Source: Octopus vulgaris (taxonomy: Eukaryota). From it: a stretch of DNA of 64,000 nt. Below the pieces are notes generated by a model. The model searched no databases. It was not told where the DNA came from and saw only the letters and a program-made list of their open reading frames with translations. How positions within the stretch are numbered: position 1 is the first letter of the stretch; every line of letters begins with the position of its first letter. Both the position numbers and the translations under genes were made by a program. Shown here piece after piece: positions 6,014-55,969 of this stretch. The DNA lies in NCBI GenBank assembly GCA_951406725.2, contig OX597821.1:64480001-64544000 (forward strand), written 5' to 3'.

Positions 6014-6403
6014 TCATTTATATGAGTAGAAAGTATGTTTCTGCCAGTGTTTACATTTGTATGATTTTTCTATGAGTGTGTTTACAAGGGGAACCTTAGA
6101 GAAGAGAATATCGAAGAGTTCAGAGTTGCAAATGTTACAAAATCTCCTGCCCTTATCAAAAAGAAAGGATACAGACAGTATGAACCAATCTAACTTGAAA
6201 TTTATATTGTTGTCTTTAAGATGCCAAACTAATTTACTTAGCCCTGTACTATGTCTTTTTTTACGATCCCTGAATGTTGAATAATGGTTTGAAATTCTCT
6301 TGGATAACTGGGAAGTGGACGCTCCTATACAGAAGAAGACATCGGTACCGGAAGAAATTCTACACTGGAAAATAGAATTCTTAATCTTAGAATTACTAAA
6401 CAA
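6014..6403 (-). CDS. C-terminal GIY-YIG endonuclease domain of a Penelope-like element (5'-truncated)
   Basis: SIFQCRI...FFCIGAST..LSKRISNHYSTF...STGLSKLVWHLKD...W.IL....CNICNSE matches the pattern of PLE endonucleases. Confidence 0.8.
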   Translation of the reverse strand: MFSNSKIKNSIFQCRISSGTDVFFCIGASTSQLSKRISNHYSTFRDRKKRHSTGLSKLVWHLKDNNINFKLDWFILSVSFLFDKGRRFCNICNSELFDILFSKVPLVNTLIEKSYKCKHWQKHTFYSYK

Positions 6404-6528
6404 AAATTTAATTCTGTTGGGGTTGTCCTCCGAGATCGAAACGAAGTTTTTATTGCTATGATTGTTGTTAATATTATTATTAGCGCCAACAACTACACTA
6501 TTTCTATTATTATTAGTATTATTAATGA

Positions 6529-6612
<84 letters not shown>

Positions 6613-6617
<5 letters not shown>

Positions 6618-7000
6618 AAATGAGAAAATGGAGAAATATATCTAAATCAATCGTCAACTGTCAGATAGTACCGAATCATATACTTTATTAAAACACTACA
6701 CAATAGCAATGATATTATACATAAATACAGTACAATAATTACAATAAATATGGTGAAATATAACTAAATAAATATAACAAGACATAAAAATACATTTACA
6801 TTGTAGCTGACAGCTGTTTCGGCTATGAAGACAGGTATGTCTCATTTAACCTATTAGCCATAAATGCAGGTATAAATGAGACATTAACAAGAATATCTTA
6901 CGGCCACTTCAGAGATTCTAATGCAAGTATGAGTACAAATCCTAAATAATTTACATATAAATATAAATATGAGTGCATACATACTCATATTCATACATAT
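6613..7000 (-). mobile_element. PLE pseudo-LTR fragment with variant hammerhead (6805-6918)
   Basis: Minus: CT CTGAAGT GGC...GCC GAAA CAGCTG TC AG; 12-bp perfect hairpin (6837-6848 / 6873-6884) inside stem II; abuts (TA)n. Confidence 0.6.
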
Positions 7001-15344: not shown

Positions 15345-16455
15345 TTGGTTTCAAATTTTGGCACAGGGTCAGTAATTTCAGAGGAGTAGGTAAGTCGATT
15401 ACATCGAACCCAGCACTCTACTGGTACTTGTTATACCGACCTGTAAGGATAGAAGGCAAAATCGACCTCGGCTTTATTTGAACAGAGACAAACGAAATAC
15501 ACAAACCATTTTGCCTGGCAAGCTAACAATTCTTTTCTACTCTAGGCACAAGGCTGGAAATTTTGGGGGAGGGGGCCAGCCGATTAGATCGACCACAGTA
15601 CGCAACTGGTGCTTAATCTATCGACACCGAAAGGATGAAAGGCAAAGTCGACCTCGTAAAGACACGAAATACCTACTTCTTTACTACTCACAAGGGGCTA
15701 AACACAGAGAGGACAAACAAGGACAGACAAACAGATTAAGTCGATTATATCGACCCCAGTGTGTACCTGGTACTTATTTAATCGACCCCAAAAGATGAAA
15801 GGCAAAGTCGATCTGGGCAGAATTTGAACACAGAACGTAACAGTAGACGAAATACCGCTAAGCATTTGAACTGGTGTGCTAACGGTTCTTATTTCTTTAC
15901 TGCCCACAAGGGGCTACACACAGAGGGGACAACCAAGGATAGACAAACGGATTAAGTCGTTTATATCGACCCCGCCCCCGAAAGGAATTTAATCGACCTC
16001 CGAGGAATTTGAACTCAGAACGTAGAGGCTGACGAAATACCTATTTCTTTACTACCCACAAGGGGCTAAACACAGAGAGGATAAACAAGGACAGACAAAC
16101 GGATTAAGTCGATTATATCGATCTCAGTGCGTAACTGGTACTTATTTAATTGACCGCGAAAGGATGAAAGGCAAAGTCGACCTCGGCGAAATTTGAACTC
16201 AGAACGTAAAGACAGACGAAATACCTATTTCTTTACTACCCACAAGGGGCTAAACACAGAGAGGACAAACAAGGATAGACAAACAGATTAAGTCGATTAT
16301 ATCGACCCCAGTGCGTAACTGTTACTTAATTTATCGACCCCAAAAGGATGAAAGGCAAAGTCGACTCGGTGGAATTTGAACTCAGAACGTAACGGCAGAC
16401 GAAATACCGCTAAGCATTTCGCCCGGCGTGCTAACAATTGTGCGAGCTCACCACC

Positions 16456-19411: not shown

Positions 19412-19444
<33 letters not shown>

Positions 19445-19479
19445 TTGTCTGTCTGTCTTTCTGCCTATCTCTCGATCTG

Positions 19480-19712
19480 GCGGTGAGCTGGCAGAAACGT
19501 TTAGCTCGCCGGGCGAAATGCGTAGCCGTATTTCGTCTGCCGTTACGTTCTGAGTTCAAATTCCGCCGAGGTCGACTTTGCCTTTCATCCTTTCGGGGTC
19601 GATAAATTAAGTACCAGTTACGCACTGGGGTTGATGTAATCGACTTAATCCGTTTGTCTGTCCTTGTTTGTCCCCTCTGTGTTTAGCCCCTTGTGGGTAA
19701 TAAAGAGATATA
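19480..19712 (+). mobile_element. Single full-length SINE family B (LINE-tail variant) with 14-bp TSD
   Basis: TSD TATCTCTCGATCTG at 19466-19479 and 19713-19726; lies in a (TATC)n/(TGTC)n tract. Confidence 0.92.
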
Positions 19713-19811
19713 TATCTCTCGATCTGTCTGACTGTCTGTCGGGCTTTCTCACTGTCTCACTCTCTTTCTCTCTCTCCCTCCCTCCATTTCTGTCTGTCTA
19801 TCTGATCTCAG

Positions 19812-36973: not shown

Positions 36974-37020
36974 ACATTAGCAACAACTACAGCAACAGCA
37001 GCAGAAATAGAATCAATATT

Positions 37021-37612
37021 CTTTTCTACCCTAGGCACAAGGCCCAAAACTTCTGCGGAAGGTCAGTCGATTAGATCAATTCCAGTACACAACTGGTACA
37101 TAATTTATCTACCCCGAAAGGATGAAGGCAATGTCGACCTTGGTGGAATTTGAACTCAGATCGTAAAGACAGACGAAATACCTATTTCTTTACTACCCAC
37201 AAGGGGCTAAACACAGAGATGACAAACAAGGACGGACAAAAGGATTAAGTCGATTATATCGATCCTAGTGCGTAACTGGTACTTATTTAATCGACCCCGA
37301 AAGGATGAAAGGCAAAGTCGATCTCGGCGGAACGGGAACTCAGAACGTAGCGGCAGACGAAATACCTATTTCTTTACTACCCACAAGGGGCTAAACAAAG
37401 AGAGGACAAACAAGGAGAGACGAATGGATTAAGTCGATTACGTCAACCCCAGTGAGTAACTGGTACTTAATTTACCGAGCTCGAAAGGATGAAAGGCGAA
37501 GTCGACCTCGGCGGAATTTGAACTCAGAACGTAACCGCAGATGAAATACGTCTATGCATTTCGCCCGGCGTGCTAACGCCTCTACCAGCTCGCCCTGCGA
37601 GCTCGCCGCCTT
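37021..37612 (-). mobile_element. Three-unit nested SINE family B with perfect 18-bp TSD
   Basis: AGAAATAGAATCAATATT at 37003-37020 and 37613-37630. Confidence 0.93.
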
Positions 37613-41295: not shown

Positions 41296-41400
41296 ACTAT
41301 ATATTAGATCTATAGTGGTTTAATCCATTAAAATGCTGTTCTAGATTCTGTATCAACTACCAGAATGCAAAATACTCTTCAGTAATATGATCCAACGACC

Positions 41401-41628
41401 GGCGAGCTTGGCAGAAACGTTAGCACGCCGGGCGAAATGCTTAGCGGTATTTCGTCTGCGTTACGTTGTGAGTTCAAATTCCGCCGAGGTCGACTTTGCC
41501 TTTCATCCTTTTGGGGTCGATAAATTAAGTACCAGTTACGCACTGGGGTCGATGTAATCGACTTAATACCTATGTCTGTCCTTGTTTGTCCGCTCTGTGT
41601 TTAGCCTCTTGTGGGTAATAAAGAAATA
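41401..41628 (+). mobile_element. SINE family B (LINE-tail variant), full length
   Basis: Head GGCGAGCTTGGCAGAAACG through GGGTAATAAAGAAATA. Confidence 0.92.
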
Positions 41629-43946: not shown

Positions 43947-44046
43947 NNNNNNNNNNNNNNNNNNNNNNNNNNNNNNNNNNNNNNNNNNNNNNNNNNNNNN
44001 NNNNNNNNNNNNNNNNNNNNNNNNNNNNNNNNNNNNNNNNNNNNNN
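43947..44046. other. Assembly gap (100 N)
   Basis: Run of N. Confidence 1.
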
Positions 44047-49811: not shown

Positions 49812-50502
49812 TTATCTACATATACATATATATATATTATATACATATATATATATATATTATATACATATATATATTATATACATATATATATATTATA
49901 TACATATATATATATATATTATATATATACATATATATATACCGTATATATACACATACACCCATATATATATACTCACATATATACGTACAAAAGGACA
50001 CATAAACATATACATCCGCACATATAGGCACACACACATACACATATAGAAAGAGAAACAGATAGGTGGATCGAGAGAGAGAGAGAGGGAGAGAAAGGGA
50101 GGGGACAGAGAAAGGGAGACAGTGACATACGAAAGATATTGTTGTTGCGGGCATGGTAAGAGGTGGGGCGAGTAGGAGTAGGTGTGCGTGTTCATAAATG
50201 TGATATTATTGGATATCTGTTAACGTGATACCTCGAATTGGATTTTATCACATTACACAGCCAGCTATATTGGTCTCTGTTGACACTGTTTCCAGCTTTA
50301 ACCCTGATATGCATTGCTATGTTACAAGAGCTGTTTTTACTGAATCATCTTCATTACATACCTTGCACATTTTATATTAGATTTTAGATTAAAGATAGCG
50401 ACGAATTGAAGATACTGAGCCTAGATGAAATGAAGGAAAAATGAAAGAATAATAGGATGAAAGGGAGAAAGATAGCGAAAGGGAGAAAGAGGATAGTAAT
50501 AA

Positions 50503-50548
<46 letters not shown>

Positions 50549-50707
50549 GAGAAGACCAATATATGAAATGGAAATAAATAAAACAAATAATAAGAGAGGT
50601 AAAAAGGGAAATACACCATCTGCAATCATTACAGTGTTCATCAAAATGTAGGATTCAATCAACGTGTTGAGATAAAACACAACTGATATATATATATATA
50701 TATATAT

Positions 50708-50760
50708 GAGCTTCCTGATGATTTCTTTTGAAGGAAACAGTTCTAGTCCTGTAGAAGCTC
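50708..50760 (+). ncRNA. Type I hammerhead ribozyme, fully paired
   Basis: GAGCTTC CTGATGA TTTC-TTTT-GAAG GAAA CAG-TTCTAGTC-CTG TA GAAGCTC; predicted cleavage after A50753 (GUA). Confidence 0.88.
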
Positions 50761-50841
50761 CTTCTATAAAATAAATTAATTTACTCTGCTATGTATTGAG
50801 TACCTTATTTACTGTGGTTAACCCCGACTCAACCCGGGACC

Positions 50842-50892
<51 letters not shown>

Positions 50893-50988
50893 GTGTGTGT
50901 ACGTGTCTGTATGTGTGTGTGTTTGTGTGTATGTATGTATATACAGTATATATACGTATGTATTTATGTATACTTTACTGTTCCATAG

Positions 50989-51044
<56 letters not shown>

Positions 51045-51062
51045 GAATATATACACACACAG

Positions 51063-51097
<35 letters not shown>

Positions 51098-51403
51098 CAC
51101 ATATTAGTTATATCATAGAATTTTAATCTGTGAATAGTGTGTTCTTGTGTGTTAGCCAGTCCTCCTTTGTTTGTACCATGTGACTTTCCAGTTCAATGGA
51201 ACATTTGAGAGAAAGGGAGTGGAGAAAGTGAGAGAATTTGTAAGGAAAGAATATGAAGGTAAGCTTGAGACATATACGTATGTAAAACCATGAACAATGA
51301 AGATGCATTATCAATGGTTTATTTAGCTTACACGCGTTTCGAACTGTCTAGTACAACACAAGCATTGAATATTGCGGTATCTATCTATTTATCTATCTAT
51401 CTG

Positions 51404-51490
<87 letters not shown>

Positions 51491-52598
51491 GCCGAAGAAG
51501 GGCGAATGGCACCGCGAGTGTCGCGTTGCTCTCAAGCAACTCTGCCGTCCTGGATCGACCTTGAGTGACTTCAACACAACCAAAGCATTCTATAGGGGTT
51601 TAGTGGAGGGGAGGTACGACGACGAGCTCGGGGCGAACCTGGACGTCGACGAGGAGTACCTGACCCGCCTGTTCAGGACGACTTTCGGGCCAGGGCCCAT
51701 GGACAACTTCCAGAGATCCCTGGCCTGGCAGTGCTACCGAAAAGCGCTACCCGTTCGGGATAAGCTCTACAGACACGGCTCGAGAAACACGGGGCCGACC
51801 TGCCCGAGATGCGGTCAGAGCGACGAAACCGTTCTGCACGCACTCGTGCAGTGTCCAACAATTTCCGACCTGTGGGCTTGTGTCGAACAACTGCTGTCAC
51901 GTGTGGGACGAGTCGGTTTATCAGCTGAGTCTATCGTTAATATTGTCACGCCTCCCTCCTTCAAACGGGAAGGAAGAGCTATTTTCATCATCCTTGTGGC
52001 TGTGGCGAAGGAATGTATCTGGTGGACGCGTCTGAAAGGATTGGAGACAAACACTTTCCTCTCTGGTCAATCTCTCATCAACTTCTTCAAGTACCACTTG
52101 AAAAGGAAAGTGAGAGTAGAGAGGCAAGTTTTGTCTAGCGAATGTTTTAAAAAAAGATGGGTGAATGTAGCAAGAATGGCACGTATGAATGACGAAGCCA
52201 CTTTGAGCATGATCCTATGAACCCAGAAATTGAAAACAGAGAGTTGCTTATTTGCAAAAAAAAAAAAAAAAAGAAATATAACATGTGACTCCATTGACCG
52301 AGGTTACCGTGGTCTTTTCTGTAGGCTTTTCTTTCCACGGGTAAACCTCACCTGTCCTCCCTTTTACACTTCATATTGACATTTCTGTGATAATGATCCC
52401 TGTTGATCAATTTTTTTTTTTTCCTCTCCCCTTTTTTTTTAACCCCCCCTTTTTTTGTCCTCTTTCTCTCCTTTTACGATCCATTTTGATCGAAACTCCC
52501 CCTTTTTTTTTTTTTTTTTTTTTTAACCTTCAAAAGAAAAGCTCTACCTTGTAATTTGTTCTATCTGTGTGCAGCCCTGTGTGGCTAATAAAGAAACA

Positions 52599-52600
<2 letters not shown>
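51491..52600 (+). mobile_element. 5'-truncated Tx1/L1-clade LINE inserted in (TATC)n
   Basis: Uninterrupted ORF2 C-terminus, pyrimidine-rich 3' UTR, AATAAAGAAAC end; (TATC)n directly on both sides. Confidence 0.88.
51492..52220 (+). CDS. LINE ORF2 C-terminus with RT-associated zinc-binding domain (zf-RVT-like), partial
   Basis: LAWQCYRKALPVRDKL...CPRCGQSDETVLHALVQCP...LW...AKECIWWTR. The N-terminal SIYL repeats of the listed ORF are microsatellite. Confidence 0.88.
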   Translation, partial: PKKGEWHRECRVALKQLCRPGSTLSDFNTTKAFYRGLVEGRYDDELGANLDVDEEYLTRLFRTTFGPGPMDNFQRSLAWQCYRKALPVRDKLYRHGSRNTGPTCPRCGQSDETVLHALVQCPTISDLWACVEQLLSRVGRVGLSAESIVNIVTPPSFKREGRAIFIILVAVAKECIWWTRLKGLETNTFLSGQSLINFFKYHLKRKVRVERQVLSSECFKKRWVNVARMARMNDEATLSMIL

Positions 52601-52663
<63 letters not shown>

Positions 52664-52772
52664 GTCTACCTATCCACCTATCTATCTATCTATCTACATA
52701 TCTACCTATCTATATGTCTATCTATCTATCTATTTACTTATCTACCTATTTATCTATCATCTACATATCTAC

Positions 52773-52803
<31 letters not shown>

Positions 52804-52812
52804 CCTATCTAC

Positions 52813-52851
<39 letters not shown>

Positions 52852-52956
52852 CCTATCTACCTATCTATCTACCTATCCACCTATCTATCTACCTATCTAC
52901 CTATCTACCTACCTACCTATCTACCTACTTACCTACCTACCTACCTACCTACCTAC

Positions 52957-53006
<50 letters not shown>

Positions 53007-53030
53007 GTCTATCTATCTGTCGATCTATCT
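52600..53030. repeat. (TATC/TACC)n tract; its left part is 51378-51490
   Basis: Directly visible. Confidence 0.95.
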
Positions 53031-53539
53031 ACGAACCATTCTGTTACTTAATCACTTAAAAAATTTATGTGAAGATATATAAATTTTCATCGAGCAGTGT
53101 AGAAGAGATATAGCTATGTCAAGTAATAGCAAATTAGCCAAGTTTTTAATGCAGTTATTAGGAGAGAAATGTCTCGAAATGGAAGCAGAATATCATAATG
53201 CATTATTGGGAAAGAGAATTTCGTTGCAGTGTGTTATCAGGATATCTTCAGAGACCACAAATGATTGATAAAAAAGAAATTCATCTAATTGTTAAAAACA
53301 TTAAGAGACTATAAAGAATTAAAATACAGTTGCATAGAAAATACATAAAATGTCATTAATGGCACTTTGTTTAAAAATAACAGAAGCCATTTTAATATGC
53401 TTTTCTTTGTTCGTAGTTCGTTTGCGATATTGACTAAGGCACCGCCTAAACGAATGAGTAGCACGGGAGCATGGTAGGATAGGCCAGGATTCTAAAAAGG
53501 CAATATTTTGTGATTATGCGACTGATATCCCGACTATTG

Positions 53540-53590
<51 letters not shown>

Positions 53591-53594
<4 letters not shown>

Positions 53595-53900
53595 AAATGA
53601 GACAAGAACGCAAAACATCCAGAAGACGATACAAAAAACACGGACGGGTCATTCGAAGCCTTTAATCAAGAACCGGATCATCCTCGCAATTTCGGCTGAT
53701 TAATCTTGAGTTTGCTCCAATCTGGCCAGCCCCGAGAAAAACTAAGCTAACAGCATTAGATTCCTTGGAAAAAAAGCTTCGAAGATGTACGAAACAAGGA
53801 CGGAAAAACGGACGATGTTACATGAATATGATCACAAAAATAATAAGAAAAAACAATAATAATATTAAAAGGACATCACAACAGGCGTCTTTCGACTAGG
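53591..53900 (-). mobile_element. Probable PLE pseudo-LTR fragment in (TA)n
   Basis: Begins TACAAAATGAGA like the fragment at 6613; TA repeats on both sides. Confidence 0.45.
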
Positions 53901-54044
53901 ATATATATACCCGCTGTCTATTTTCGATTCAAGGTATTCGTGGATTGACATGTACTGGATTATATTTTTCGACTACTGCATCGGATGACCAGCCTGAGTC
54001 GCATTGTCCCCCATTTCCTTGTAACAGTGTCAAGCTTGTTCGAC

Positions 54045-54262
54045 ACTTTAGCATTCAGATAAATCTGTCAAATGTGATATTTATTCATTCATATTTTTTT
54101 CAATTAATCATGCATTATCTTGTAGCTTCGGGATTTCGATTATGTTTAACTTTTAGAATGACATTTAAGGGTAAATGTGGGAAGCAAGATTTGGTCATTT
54201 TCAGCATACAAAATGTAGATATTTGGGCCAAATGTGGACTGAGAGTCTGTTTAAATGCTGAA
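54045..54262. mobile_element. Degenerate MITE, followed by a 2 x ~59-bp duplication (54252-54369)
   Basis: Ends TTTAGCATT / AATGCTGAA are inverted; duplication visible. Confidence 0.4.
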
Positions 54263-55969
54263 TTGCACTTTTGCAATCATTGAGAAGGATGACCTGGTTG
54301 ATTTATGATTAAATGCTAAGTTGCACATTTTTCAATCATTGAGAAGGATGACCTCGTTGATTAATGATTCTCACGAGGTAAGAGTTCTAAATCTACGTAG
54401 CTTGACATGTCCTGTTCTCTCGTTGAAGCTTGACTGATGCTTACGTTTTTTACCCCACAGTCCGCCTGAAATCCAGCCTGCTCATGTCTTCCGTTTTTCA
54501 GCAAGGGAATCAGTTAGATAATTTCACGGAGAATTTAAGACTCATCAGCTTCAACATGGTTTAAATGTCCTACCAATATTTCAGCCAAGGCATAAGTGCA
54601 TAGAGATGTGCTGATCGTGCGGTGGCAATGCTTTTCCTGGGTATGTAACTGGAGTCAGTTGCAGACGAGTTGTACTAAAAAGAAATTGACTGGACCAGAT
54701 CTGTCCGTCATGTTTTTTCCCCGGAACTGGTTTCTCTCCAACAATCCGGTTTCTGAGTTTATATCTTGAAATTATTTCATAATCTGCGTATTTTCGATCA
54801 ATAAATCTTTAAAAATAACTTATACTATACTCATACATACAAACATACATAGTTGTGGATATGTATGGATATGTATATATGTAAGTAGGTACGAAATACG
54901 TATGTATGTATATATATATCTATCTATCTATCCACGGTAGCGGTTGAATATATTTTTAAGTCCACCAATTCATCAATCGCAGCAACTCCCAAGCTTCACC
55001 ACTAATTCAGTTCTCAACTAAATTGCAAAATGTTAACAGTTTTCAAGAGGACATCTCCTCAGCTACACTTTGGTATTAATAGTTTGAGATCTGGTTCAGT
55101 AGAAAAAAAAAGTCACATCAAAATATGTCAGTTCTAAAGGTAGGCAGTAAGGCACTTATTCATCTTTAATTAACAATTTCTATTTTATTCTAAAATAAAA
55201 GTATACTTTTCTTAGGCTGTAATGAAAGAAAAATGCATGGGGAATTCAGAAACGTTAGTCGCATTGAACAAAAATTAGTAGAAGAAAAAGTTATGAGGTG
55301 AAATGTTATGAAATTTATTGTCAGTAAGTGAGGAAGGAAGAAGTAACGTACCAATAATGTTACGATAAGAATATTTTCTAAAGTGAATTCTTACATTCTA
55401 ACGTATCGAGTTGACAGACGGTATTTCGTCTGTCTTCAACTCGTCTGAGTTCAAATTCCACCGTAGTCGACTTTCCCTTCCGTATATTTTATTTTTTTAA
55501 TAAAATTATTTTTAATAGCTGTAATTAACTTGCTTTCTTTTTTTTTCGCCTTTCCCATTTAGTTGTTTTCCTTTTCTTTTTAGTTATTTAATCAGGCTAA
55601 TTTATTAATGGGTTATATGTGCATCTAAATTTATTGGGGCAGGGATATAGTCATTTTTATCTGTGTCTCTATGGGCAGACCTGTAGACATGTTGTAAGGC
55701 TGTCCAGAAAAGGCATTGGTTAAAAGTGCTTGTATTCTAAATTTACTTCTTAAATTTCAAAATTAATTAAAAGGGAGTTTTCATAAATCAAATTTATATT
55801 AATGGGATGTAGGTAATTTTAACTTGTGTATATCTGATATGACTTTATAATTAATGTTGTATTGAATAATTATTGATAGATCTAGGTTAGCAGCAGTCAG
55901 TGCTATTATCACCAACTCAAAATCTAGGTTACTTAAGGTGAGCCTCTAACTGCAAATGAAAATCTTCCC

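What the first reader, a model, noticed from the sequence alone, without database searches (positions are those of the whole stretch)
51378..53030. Young Tx1-like LINE apparently targeted to (TATC)n/(GATA)n
Seen: both junctions run directly into TATC repeats; the 243-codon ORF has no stops and keeps many CpGs; there is no poly(A). Known: several Tx1-clade families are specific for microsatellites or small-RNA genes. Inference: a GATA-repeat-specific family that was active recently.
Basis: partly seen in the sequence, partly recalled or inferred. Interest (0 to 1): 0.7.

Follow-up and report, generated by a model that had tools for sequence, protein, structure and literature searches.

The report
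Octopus TATC-seeking LINE with SINE partner
This is the 1.1-kb tail end of a common octopus jumping gene (an L1-group LINE) sitting inside a TATC repeat, and a short passenger element 32 kb away has the same last 44 bases and sits in a matching site, so the LINE likely prefers TATC repeats and likely carries that passenger, a pairing rarely reported for this LINE group.

Summary
Observation confirmed. 51491-52598 is a 5'-truncated LINE: the ORF2 C-terminus (zf-RVT, no stops), a 378-nt 3' UTR and no poly(A), between (TATC)28 and (TATC)108. A full-length relative, 81% identical, has APE + RT + zf-RVT and is closest to human L1 ORF2p among solved structures. That places it in the L1 group; Tx1 membership rests on recalled motifs, because my tree had no named Tx1. 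The family is abundant in four runs. This copy differs from their majority at about 16 of 1000 bases, so it is fairly young; the CpG argument is weak.

New here: the last 44 nt match the 3' tail of the window's tRNA-type SINE (31-35 of 44, same end point). One SINE copy ending in this tail (19479-19710) lies in a degenerate TATC array, with a 13-14-bp target duplication in the same strand and phase. Its site matches the LINE's 3' flank at 15 of 17 bases (background 0.04%). The other tail-terminal SINE shows no such site. Flanks of other LINE copies could not be read, so family-wide targeting is likely but not shown.

The parts
51378..51490 (+). 5' flanking (TATC)n array, 28.2 units, ends ...ATCT at the junction
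   Evidence: 96% matches
51491..52220 (+). 5'-truncated ORF2 C-terminus of an L1-group (likely Tx1-like) LINE: 242 codons plus stop. G51491 fits both the family sequence and a TATCTG target
   Evidence: (81% to residues 907-1148 of P0290)
51717..51875 (+). zf-RVT zinc-finger region
   Evidence: PF13966 E 2e-08, residues 76-128
52221..52598 (+). 3' UTR, 378 nt, with an A run (52256-52276) and a T run (52503-52524); no terminal poly(A)
   Evidence: contigs of 4 runs cover it up to about 52490, the rest was masked
52555..52598 (+). 44-nt terminal tail shared with the window's SINE; holds AATAAA at 52587-52592
   Evidence: 31-35 of 44 identical to 10 of 10 SINE tails, 0 of 1000 shuffles reached the score for any of them
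52599..53031 (+). 3' (TATC)n array, 108.5 units; first 16 units pure, then TGTC and degenerate TACC units (older part)
19479..19710 (+). SINE copy (tRNA-type by recalled resemblance) ending in the shared tail, inserted in a degenerate TATC/TGTC/TC array
   Evidence: TRF array 19412-19478
19466..19479 (+). left copy of the SINE's target-site duplication (13 bp, or 14 with the ambiguous G)
19713..19726 (+). right copy of the SINE's target-site duplication, two bases (TA) after the tail
41400..41628 (+). second SINE copy that ends in the shared tail; no TSD of 5 bp or more and no TATC flank (counts against, or a broken multimer)

Best explanation
This is a 5'-truncated copy of an abundant octopus L1-group LINE, likely Tx1-like, whose machinery likely prefers (TATC)n/(GATA)n repeats and likely also mobilises a SINE through a shared 44-nt 3' tail. 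Shown: the ORF2 C-terminus, 3' UTR, exact junctions, TATC on both sides, the shared tail, and one SINE insertion with a 13-14-bp duplication in a matching site. Inferred from the general target-primed model: the APE endonuclease nicks the GATA strand. The RNA, read through into UAUC repeats, would pair with the freed 3'-GATA end, which would explain the missing poly(A) and the 16 pure units at the 3' junction. Reverse transcription stopped after 1.1 kb. The second strand would be cut 13-14 nt away, near ATCTG/TCT in both insertions.
For: zf-RVT hit. P0290 (1148 aa) is 81% identical over 242 aa, has Exo_endo_phos + RVT_1 + zf-RVT, and matches human L1 ORF2p at E 1.5e-53 against R2 at 2.7e-19. 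The family was laid as 32,771, 12,469, 8,679 and 6,461 contig pieces in 4 runs of 4 organism labels. The distal 3' array departs from pure TATC at 2-17 of 48 bases per block, far more than the element's 0.8-1.6%, so that part predates the insertion. No other element tail lies upstream of the 5' array: only 11 places in the window reach 26 of 44, the 10 SINE tails and this LINE. The SINE TSD matches (TATC)3T at 11 of 13 bases in the same strand and phase; background is 110 of 124,314 sites, 0.09%. The SINE site matches the LINE's flank at 15 of 17; background is 50 of 124,290, 0.04%. Tx1-clade families on (TC)n, (TTC)n, (TTCC)n and (TTTC)n are described in PMC4494074.
Against: Only one LINE copy has readable flanks. 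None of the 24 loose-end rows shown (of 2162) is TATC; the rows shown are the best supported and mostly subfamily differences. The 3' 120 nt were masked, so I could not confirm that the tail is family-wide. Of 10 SINE tails of this type, 8 are internal to multimers outside TATC arrays, and several of these loci end in another tail. Of the 2 terminal ones, 1 (41628) has no TSD and no TATC. The SINE's site is degenerate and TC-rich, so the preference may be looser than TATC. The tails differ by about 20%, so a sister LINE family may be the true carrier. The 15/17 comparison was chosen after seeing the data. The tree has no named Tx1.
Confidence: 0.6

Rival explanations
1. Looser pyrimidine-strand preference: the endonuclease cuts a range of TC-containing repeats (TC, TATC, TGTC, TTTC), and TATC is just one common landing site.
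For: The SINE's TSD holds a TCTC stretch and its array mixes TATC, TGTC and TC units. Known Tx1 microsatellite targets are (TC)n, (TTC)n, (TTCC)n and (TTTC)n.
Against: Both sites start with TATC and end ATCT(G)TCT in the same phase.
Confidence: 0.17
2. Pairing rather than cutting: the RNA ends in (UAUC)n and primes best at nicks with a 3'-GATA end, so a relaxed endonuclease gives an apparent TATC bias.
For: No poly(A), and 16 pure units follow the 3' end. Microsatellite tails are common in non-specific LINEs, e.g. the octopus RTE in PMC9115989.
Against: The SINE copy has no TATC tail, only TA before its TSD, yet it landed in a matching site.
Confidence: 0.13
3. No preference: an ordinary L1/Tx1 copy fell by chance into a TATC array in a microsatellite-rich genome, and the SINE site is a second coincidence.
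For: The locus was chosen for this feature. There are 309 tandem-repeat rows in 64 kb. One of the 2 tail-terminal SINEs is not in TATC.
Against: Matching sites are 0.04-0.09% of the window; exact TATC runs are 0.26% of the + strand.
Confidence: 0.07
4. The shared tail is peculiar to this copy (template switch from a SINE RNA), not a LINE-SINE partnership.
For: The family's own 3' end could not be read (masked).
Against: Nine of 10 SINE tails match their majority at 40-44 of 44 (the tenth has an indel, 36), while the LINE tail matches at 35. A recently captured SINE piece should look like the SINEs, as the LINE body is within 2% of its family.
Confidence: 0.08

Closest known systems
Kibi (TC)n, Koshi (TTC)n and crocodilian Tx1 families on (TTCC)n/(TTTC)n (Kojima 2015, PMC4494074; passages and parts 3-4 of 5 read, no supplement available)
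   Same: APE-type L1-group LINE found inside a TC-containing microsatellite.
   Different: Repeat unit TATC; cephalopod host; kinship to Kibi/Koshi not tested; preference rests on two insertions, not on a copy survey.
Octopus vulgaris L1-Tx1 families (Bonar et al. 2026, PMC13282606; parts 1-2 of 3 read)
   Same: 13 L1-Tx1 families with 421 recently active insertions (2% divergence or less) are listed, so young Tx1 in octopus is known. This family is probably among them.
   Different: The parts read say nothing on target sites or SINE partners; the consensus library is on Zenodo and could not be checked.
SINE/LINE pairs with a common 3' tail (Ohshima 2013, PMC3747384; section 1.4, passages, part of Table 1)
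   Same: The SINE's 3' end matches the LINE's 3' end and stops at the same base.
   Different: That review found only 3 SINEs with L1-clade tails among over 800 L1-clade LINEs; those I saw listed are from maize/sorghum and Chlamydomonas. Bivalve SINE partners are CR1, CR1-Zenon, L2 and Nimb (PMC11481361, passages).
SINEU with Tx1-Mar in crocodilians (PMC4494074)
   Same: A SINE shares the target preference of a Tx1 family.
   Different: SINEU heads are snRNA-derived, and no LINE sharing the SINEU-1 3' end was found; here the tail itself is shared.
Human L1 ORF2p (PDB 9k6g, 8uw3, 8sxt)
   Same: APE + RT layout; best solved-structure match for P0290.
   Different: Human L1 ends in poly(A) and needs no specific 3' sequence (PMC3747384); this copy has no poly(A) and has a tail shared with a SINE.

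Membership tests
L1 group of non-LTR retrotransposons | ORF2 with N-terminal APE, RT and C-terminal zinc finger | tested here: met
   On the relative P0290 (81% identical to the fragment): PF03372, PF00078, PF13966. The window copy itself holds only the zinc-finger end.
L1 group of non-LTR retrotransposons | ORF2 closer to L1 than to RLE-type elements | tested here: met
   L1 ORF2p E 1.5e-53 against R2 2.7e-19. The hit list had no CR1, RTE or I-type proteins to compare.
L1 group of non-LTR retrotransposons | 5' truncation, intact 3' end, no LTRs, target-site duplication | tested here: inconclusive
   5' truncation and intact ORF end shown. TSD length cannot be read inside a tandem repeat; it is compatible with 13 or 14 bp.
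Tx1 clade | RT groups with Tx1L/Keno/Kibi/Koshi in a phylogeny | tested here: inconclusive
   Quick IQ-TREE of 65 of 163 RT rows: P0290, P0293, P0004 and P0006 (Argonauta) form a clade (SH-aLRT 99) within a clade of 16 (100), but no row carries a Tx1 or L1 name.
Tx1 clade | RT motifs of the DQxKAFDRVxH / RQGCPLS type (recalled as Tx1-like, not from a call) | tested here: met
   P0290 and its nearest relatives carry them; human L1 differs at these places in the alignment. The diagnostic value is my recall.
Tx1 clade | ORF1 upstream of ORF2 | not testable with these tools
   No DNA of a full-length copy could be fetched.
Microsatellite-targeting Tx1 families (Kibi/Koshi type) | More than 20% of copies flanked by the same repeat (criterion in PMC4494074) | tested here: inconclusive
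   1 of 1 LINE copy and 1 of 2 tail-terminal SINE copies; other copies' flanks not readable.
SINE/LINE tail pair (stringent type) | Shared 3'-terminal sequence ending at the same point | tested here: met
   31-35 of 44 identical, end-anchored, in 10 of 10 SINE tails; 0 of 1000 shuffles reach the score. One LINE copy only.
SINE/LINE tail pair (stringent type) | Conserved 3' stem-loop with compensatory changes | tested here: inconclusive
   Weak hairpin (-4.5 kcal/mol); 0 of 11 pairs have a double change.

The most novel reading that the evidence does not exclude
A cephalopod Tx1 lineage is specific for (TATC)n, cuts at ATCTG/TCT with a 13-14-bp stagger, recognises a defined 44-nt RNA tail instead of poly(A), and is one of the engines of the huge octopus SINE expansion. 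The multimeric SINE would carry tails for two different LINEs and switch carrier and target depending on which tail primes.
Probability: 0.3. Interest if true: 0.68.

Novelty: new variant of a known kind. Interest (0 to 1): 0.47.

Why it matters
Microsatellite-targeting Tx1 LINEs are known, so a TATC target in octopus would add a repeat unit and a host group, not a mechanism. The shared tail matters more. SINEs are about 11.6% of the O. vulgaris genome (PMC13282606), I found no partner LINE named for them, and tail-sharing partners in the L1 group are rare in the review read. If it holds, it names a carrier for octopus SINEs and gives an animal L1-group element with sequence-specific 3' recognition. 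It would also mean that many octopus GATA microsatellite loci lie next to high-copy insertions. All of this can be tested at once on public assemblies.

Tried and rejected
No own genome is held. No second LINE copy in the window by blastn or tblastn.

Searches for DNA loci of relatives found none: genome contigs, viral contigs (21), metagenome contigs (22). A tail pattern found none in genome, viral or metagenome contigs (48, 49, 73). That pattern was made to fit both tails, so its 11 window matches are not counted as a test; the shuffle test is.

Read laying masked 52491-52610, so zero depth there is no finding. The records that run over the stretch's ends (37, 16, 15, 12) match in number the upstream-ORF2 loose ends (46, 15, 18, 13) and are not read as TATC junctions. 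Summed depth is not used as a copy number.

Rfam found nothing in 50000-55000, and ARAGORN found no tRNA in the window. No fetched protein holds a translated TATC run. The ESM Atlas gave only generic RT names. Name look-ups of 30 proteins gave no Tx1 or L1 label. The careful tree did not finish; the quick one is reported.

CpG retention was rejected as an age marker. An upstream element donating the 5' array was rejected.

Paper searches (listings) showed no TATC/GATA-targeting Tx1 and no LINE partner for octopus SINEs. Searches returned mostly unrelated papers and are weak. The supplements of PMC4494074 (not held) and PMC13282606 (listed, not read), and the Zenodo library, may bear on novelty.

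Full report
Observation. The window shows (TATC)28.2 at 51378-51490 and (TATC)108.5 at 52599-53031, enclosing 1108 nt of other sequence. The frame 51489-52217 has 243 codons without a stop; 0 of 20,000 shuffles were stop-free. It hits Pfam zf-RVT at E 2e-08. The 3' end is AATAAA plus six bases and then TATC, with no poly(A).

What it is. Longer homologs carry RVT_1 and zf-RVT at 58-67% identity, one of them from Argonauta hians. Octopus bimaculoides gene models hold short pieces at 83% and 95% identity, so the host is likely an octopus. The closest full-length relative, P0290 (1148 aa, unnamed, found), is 81% identical over 242 aa, residues 907-1148. It has Exo_endo_phos, RVT_1 and zf-RVT. Its best solved-structure match is human L1 ORF2p, E 1.5e-53, against 2.7e-19 for R2. 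The fragment is thus the last fifth of an L1-group ORF2 plus a 378-nt 3' UTR. The RT motifs of P0290 and its neighbours are of the type I recall for Tx1. A quick tree of 65 of 163 RT rows put the four closest relatives in one clade (SH-aLRT 99), but held no named Tx1 or L1, and 30 name look-ups gave none. Tx1 membership is therefore likely but not shown.

Family and age. Twenty of 24 listed runs hold the stretch or part of it, 17 with half of the words or more, in 10 studies. I laid 4 of them, one per organism label, and 32,771, 12,469, 8,679 and 6,461 contig pieces fitted. In all four, loose ends at 51491 continue as upstream sequence that reads, by eye, like the residues before P907 of P0290. 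This fixes the 5' junction at 51490/51491. Among the 40 of 198 variant rows shown, this copy differs from the majority of all four runs at 16 places, and at 8 by more than 90%, over about 1000 covered bases: 0.8-1.6%, a lower bound. That is inside the 2% cut-off for 'recently active' of PMC13282606 and, at that paper's rate of 0.0036 per million years, roughly 2-4 million years. That paper lists 13 L1-Tx1 families with 421 recent insertions in O. vulgaris, so young octopus Tx1 is already known.

Is TATC the target? Direct test failed. No genome is held, no loci came from public collections, and the read tool masked 52491-52610 and printed 24 of 2162 loose-end rows, none of them TATC. Local evidence: the distal 3' array departs from pure TATC at 2-17 of 48 bases per block, while the first 64 nt are pure, so most of the array is older than the insertion. 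No element tail precedes the 5' array. Exact TATC runs elsewhere cover 0.26% of the + strand.

The SINE link. The LINE's last 44 nt match the 3' tails of a repeated short element in the window, with a tRNA-type head by my recall (ARAGORN calls no tRNA). The match is 31-35 of 44 identical, ungapped and ending at the same base, in 10 of 10 tails; local scores were 33-48 against shuffle maxima of 23-29, and 0 of 1000 shuffles reached them. Eight of these tails are internal to multimers; several of those loci end in a different tail. Two are terminal. The copy at 19479-19710 lies in a TATC/TGTC/TC array with a perfect 13-bp duplication (19466-19478 and 19713-19725), or 14 bp with an ambiguous G. 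The duplication starts with TATC and ends in ATCT, the same strand and phase as the LINE's junctions. It matches (TATC)3T at 11 of 13; 110 of 124,314 other window sites do as well. The LINE also has G right after ATCT at its 5' junction, and its pure 3' run ends in TGTC. The two sites then agree at 15 of 17 bases, against a background of 50 of 124,290; this second comparison was post hoc. The other terminal copy (41400-41628) has no TSD of 5 bp or more and no TATC, which counts against, unless it is a broken multimer. A joint fold of the 11 tails gave only a weak hairpin with no compensatory change.

Mechanism. Shown: anatomy, junctions, shared tail, one SINE TSD in a matching site. Inferred from the general target-primed model: the APE nicks the GATA strand; RNA read through into UAUC repeats would pair with the 3'-GATA primer, explaining the absent poly(A); synthesis stopped after 1.1 kb; a second cut 13-14 nt away gave the duplication. 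The SINE would enter the same route through its tail. Rivals are a looser TC-repeat preference (0.17), a bias from RNA-DNA pairing without a specific endonuclease (0.13), a one-off chimeric tail (0.08) and chance (0.07). These are not all exclusive.

Comparison. PMC4494074 (passages, parts 3-4 of 5) lists Kibi on (TC)n, Koshi on (TTC)n and crocodilian Tx1 on (TTCC)n/(TTTC)n; I saw no TATC or GATA there, but its tree figure and supplements could not be seen. PMC4640811 (passages) names Tx1 and R1 as the APE clades with target-specific members, which fits. PMC3747384 (section 1.4, passages, part of Table 1) reports only 3 SINEs with L1-clade tails. PMC11481361 (passages) gives CR1, CR1-Zenon, L2 and Nimb as bivalve SINE partners. 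Passages of PMC8967140, PMC4758252, PMC5804259, PMC4824008, PMC5786205, PMC9115989 and PMC3531059 named no target or partner for octopus Tx1 or SINEs. An earlier unchecked scan note on a (TTTC)n Tx1-like copy in another genome was a lead only. Repbase and Dfam could not be searched, so the family may already be catalogued.

Verdict. A real, fairly young L1-group LINE fragment. It works like a microsatellite-targeting Tx1, with a likely new target unit and a likely SINE partner through a shared tail. New variant of a known kind; interest 0.47.

Noticed in passing
window 37020-37612 (-): Multimeric SINE ending in a second tail type, flanked by a perfect 18-bp AT-rich duplication. Similar tails occur near 15545, 23267, 30505 and 39377, which suggests a second carrier LINE.
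   Followed up: partly
window 15391-16455 (-): Array of about six SINE units (TRF period 184), directly after a (TTA)25 repeat. Internal units start at two fixed points of the head.
   Followed up: partly
window 6014-6646 (-): 210-codon frame whose last 128 residues look to me like a GIY-YIG/Penelope end next to a TAT repeat; Pfam gave no significant hit.
   Followed up: partly
window-wide: All exact (TATC)4+ runs are on the + strand, but looser matches occur on both strands; probably chance.
   Followed up: partly
P0007, P0015: Two O. bimaculoides gene models begin with pieces of this LINE's ORF2, so they are likely gene-prediction contamination.
   Followed up: no
P0005: A 62%-identical relative is filed under a Herbaspirillum metagenome-assembled genome, likely animal DNA contamination.
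   Followed up: no
window 43947-44046: Assembly gap of 100 N.
   Followed up: no
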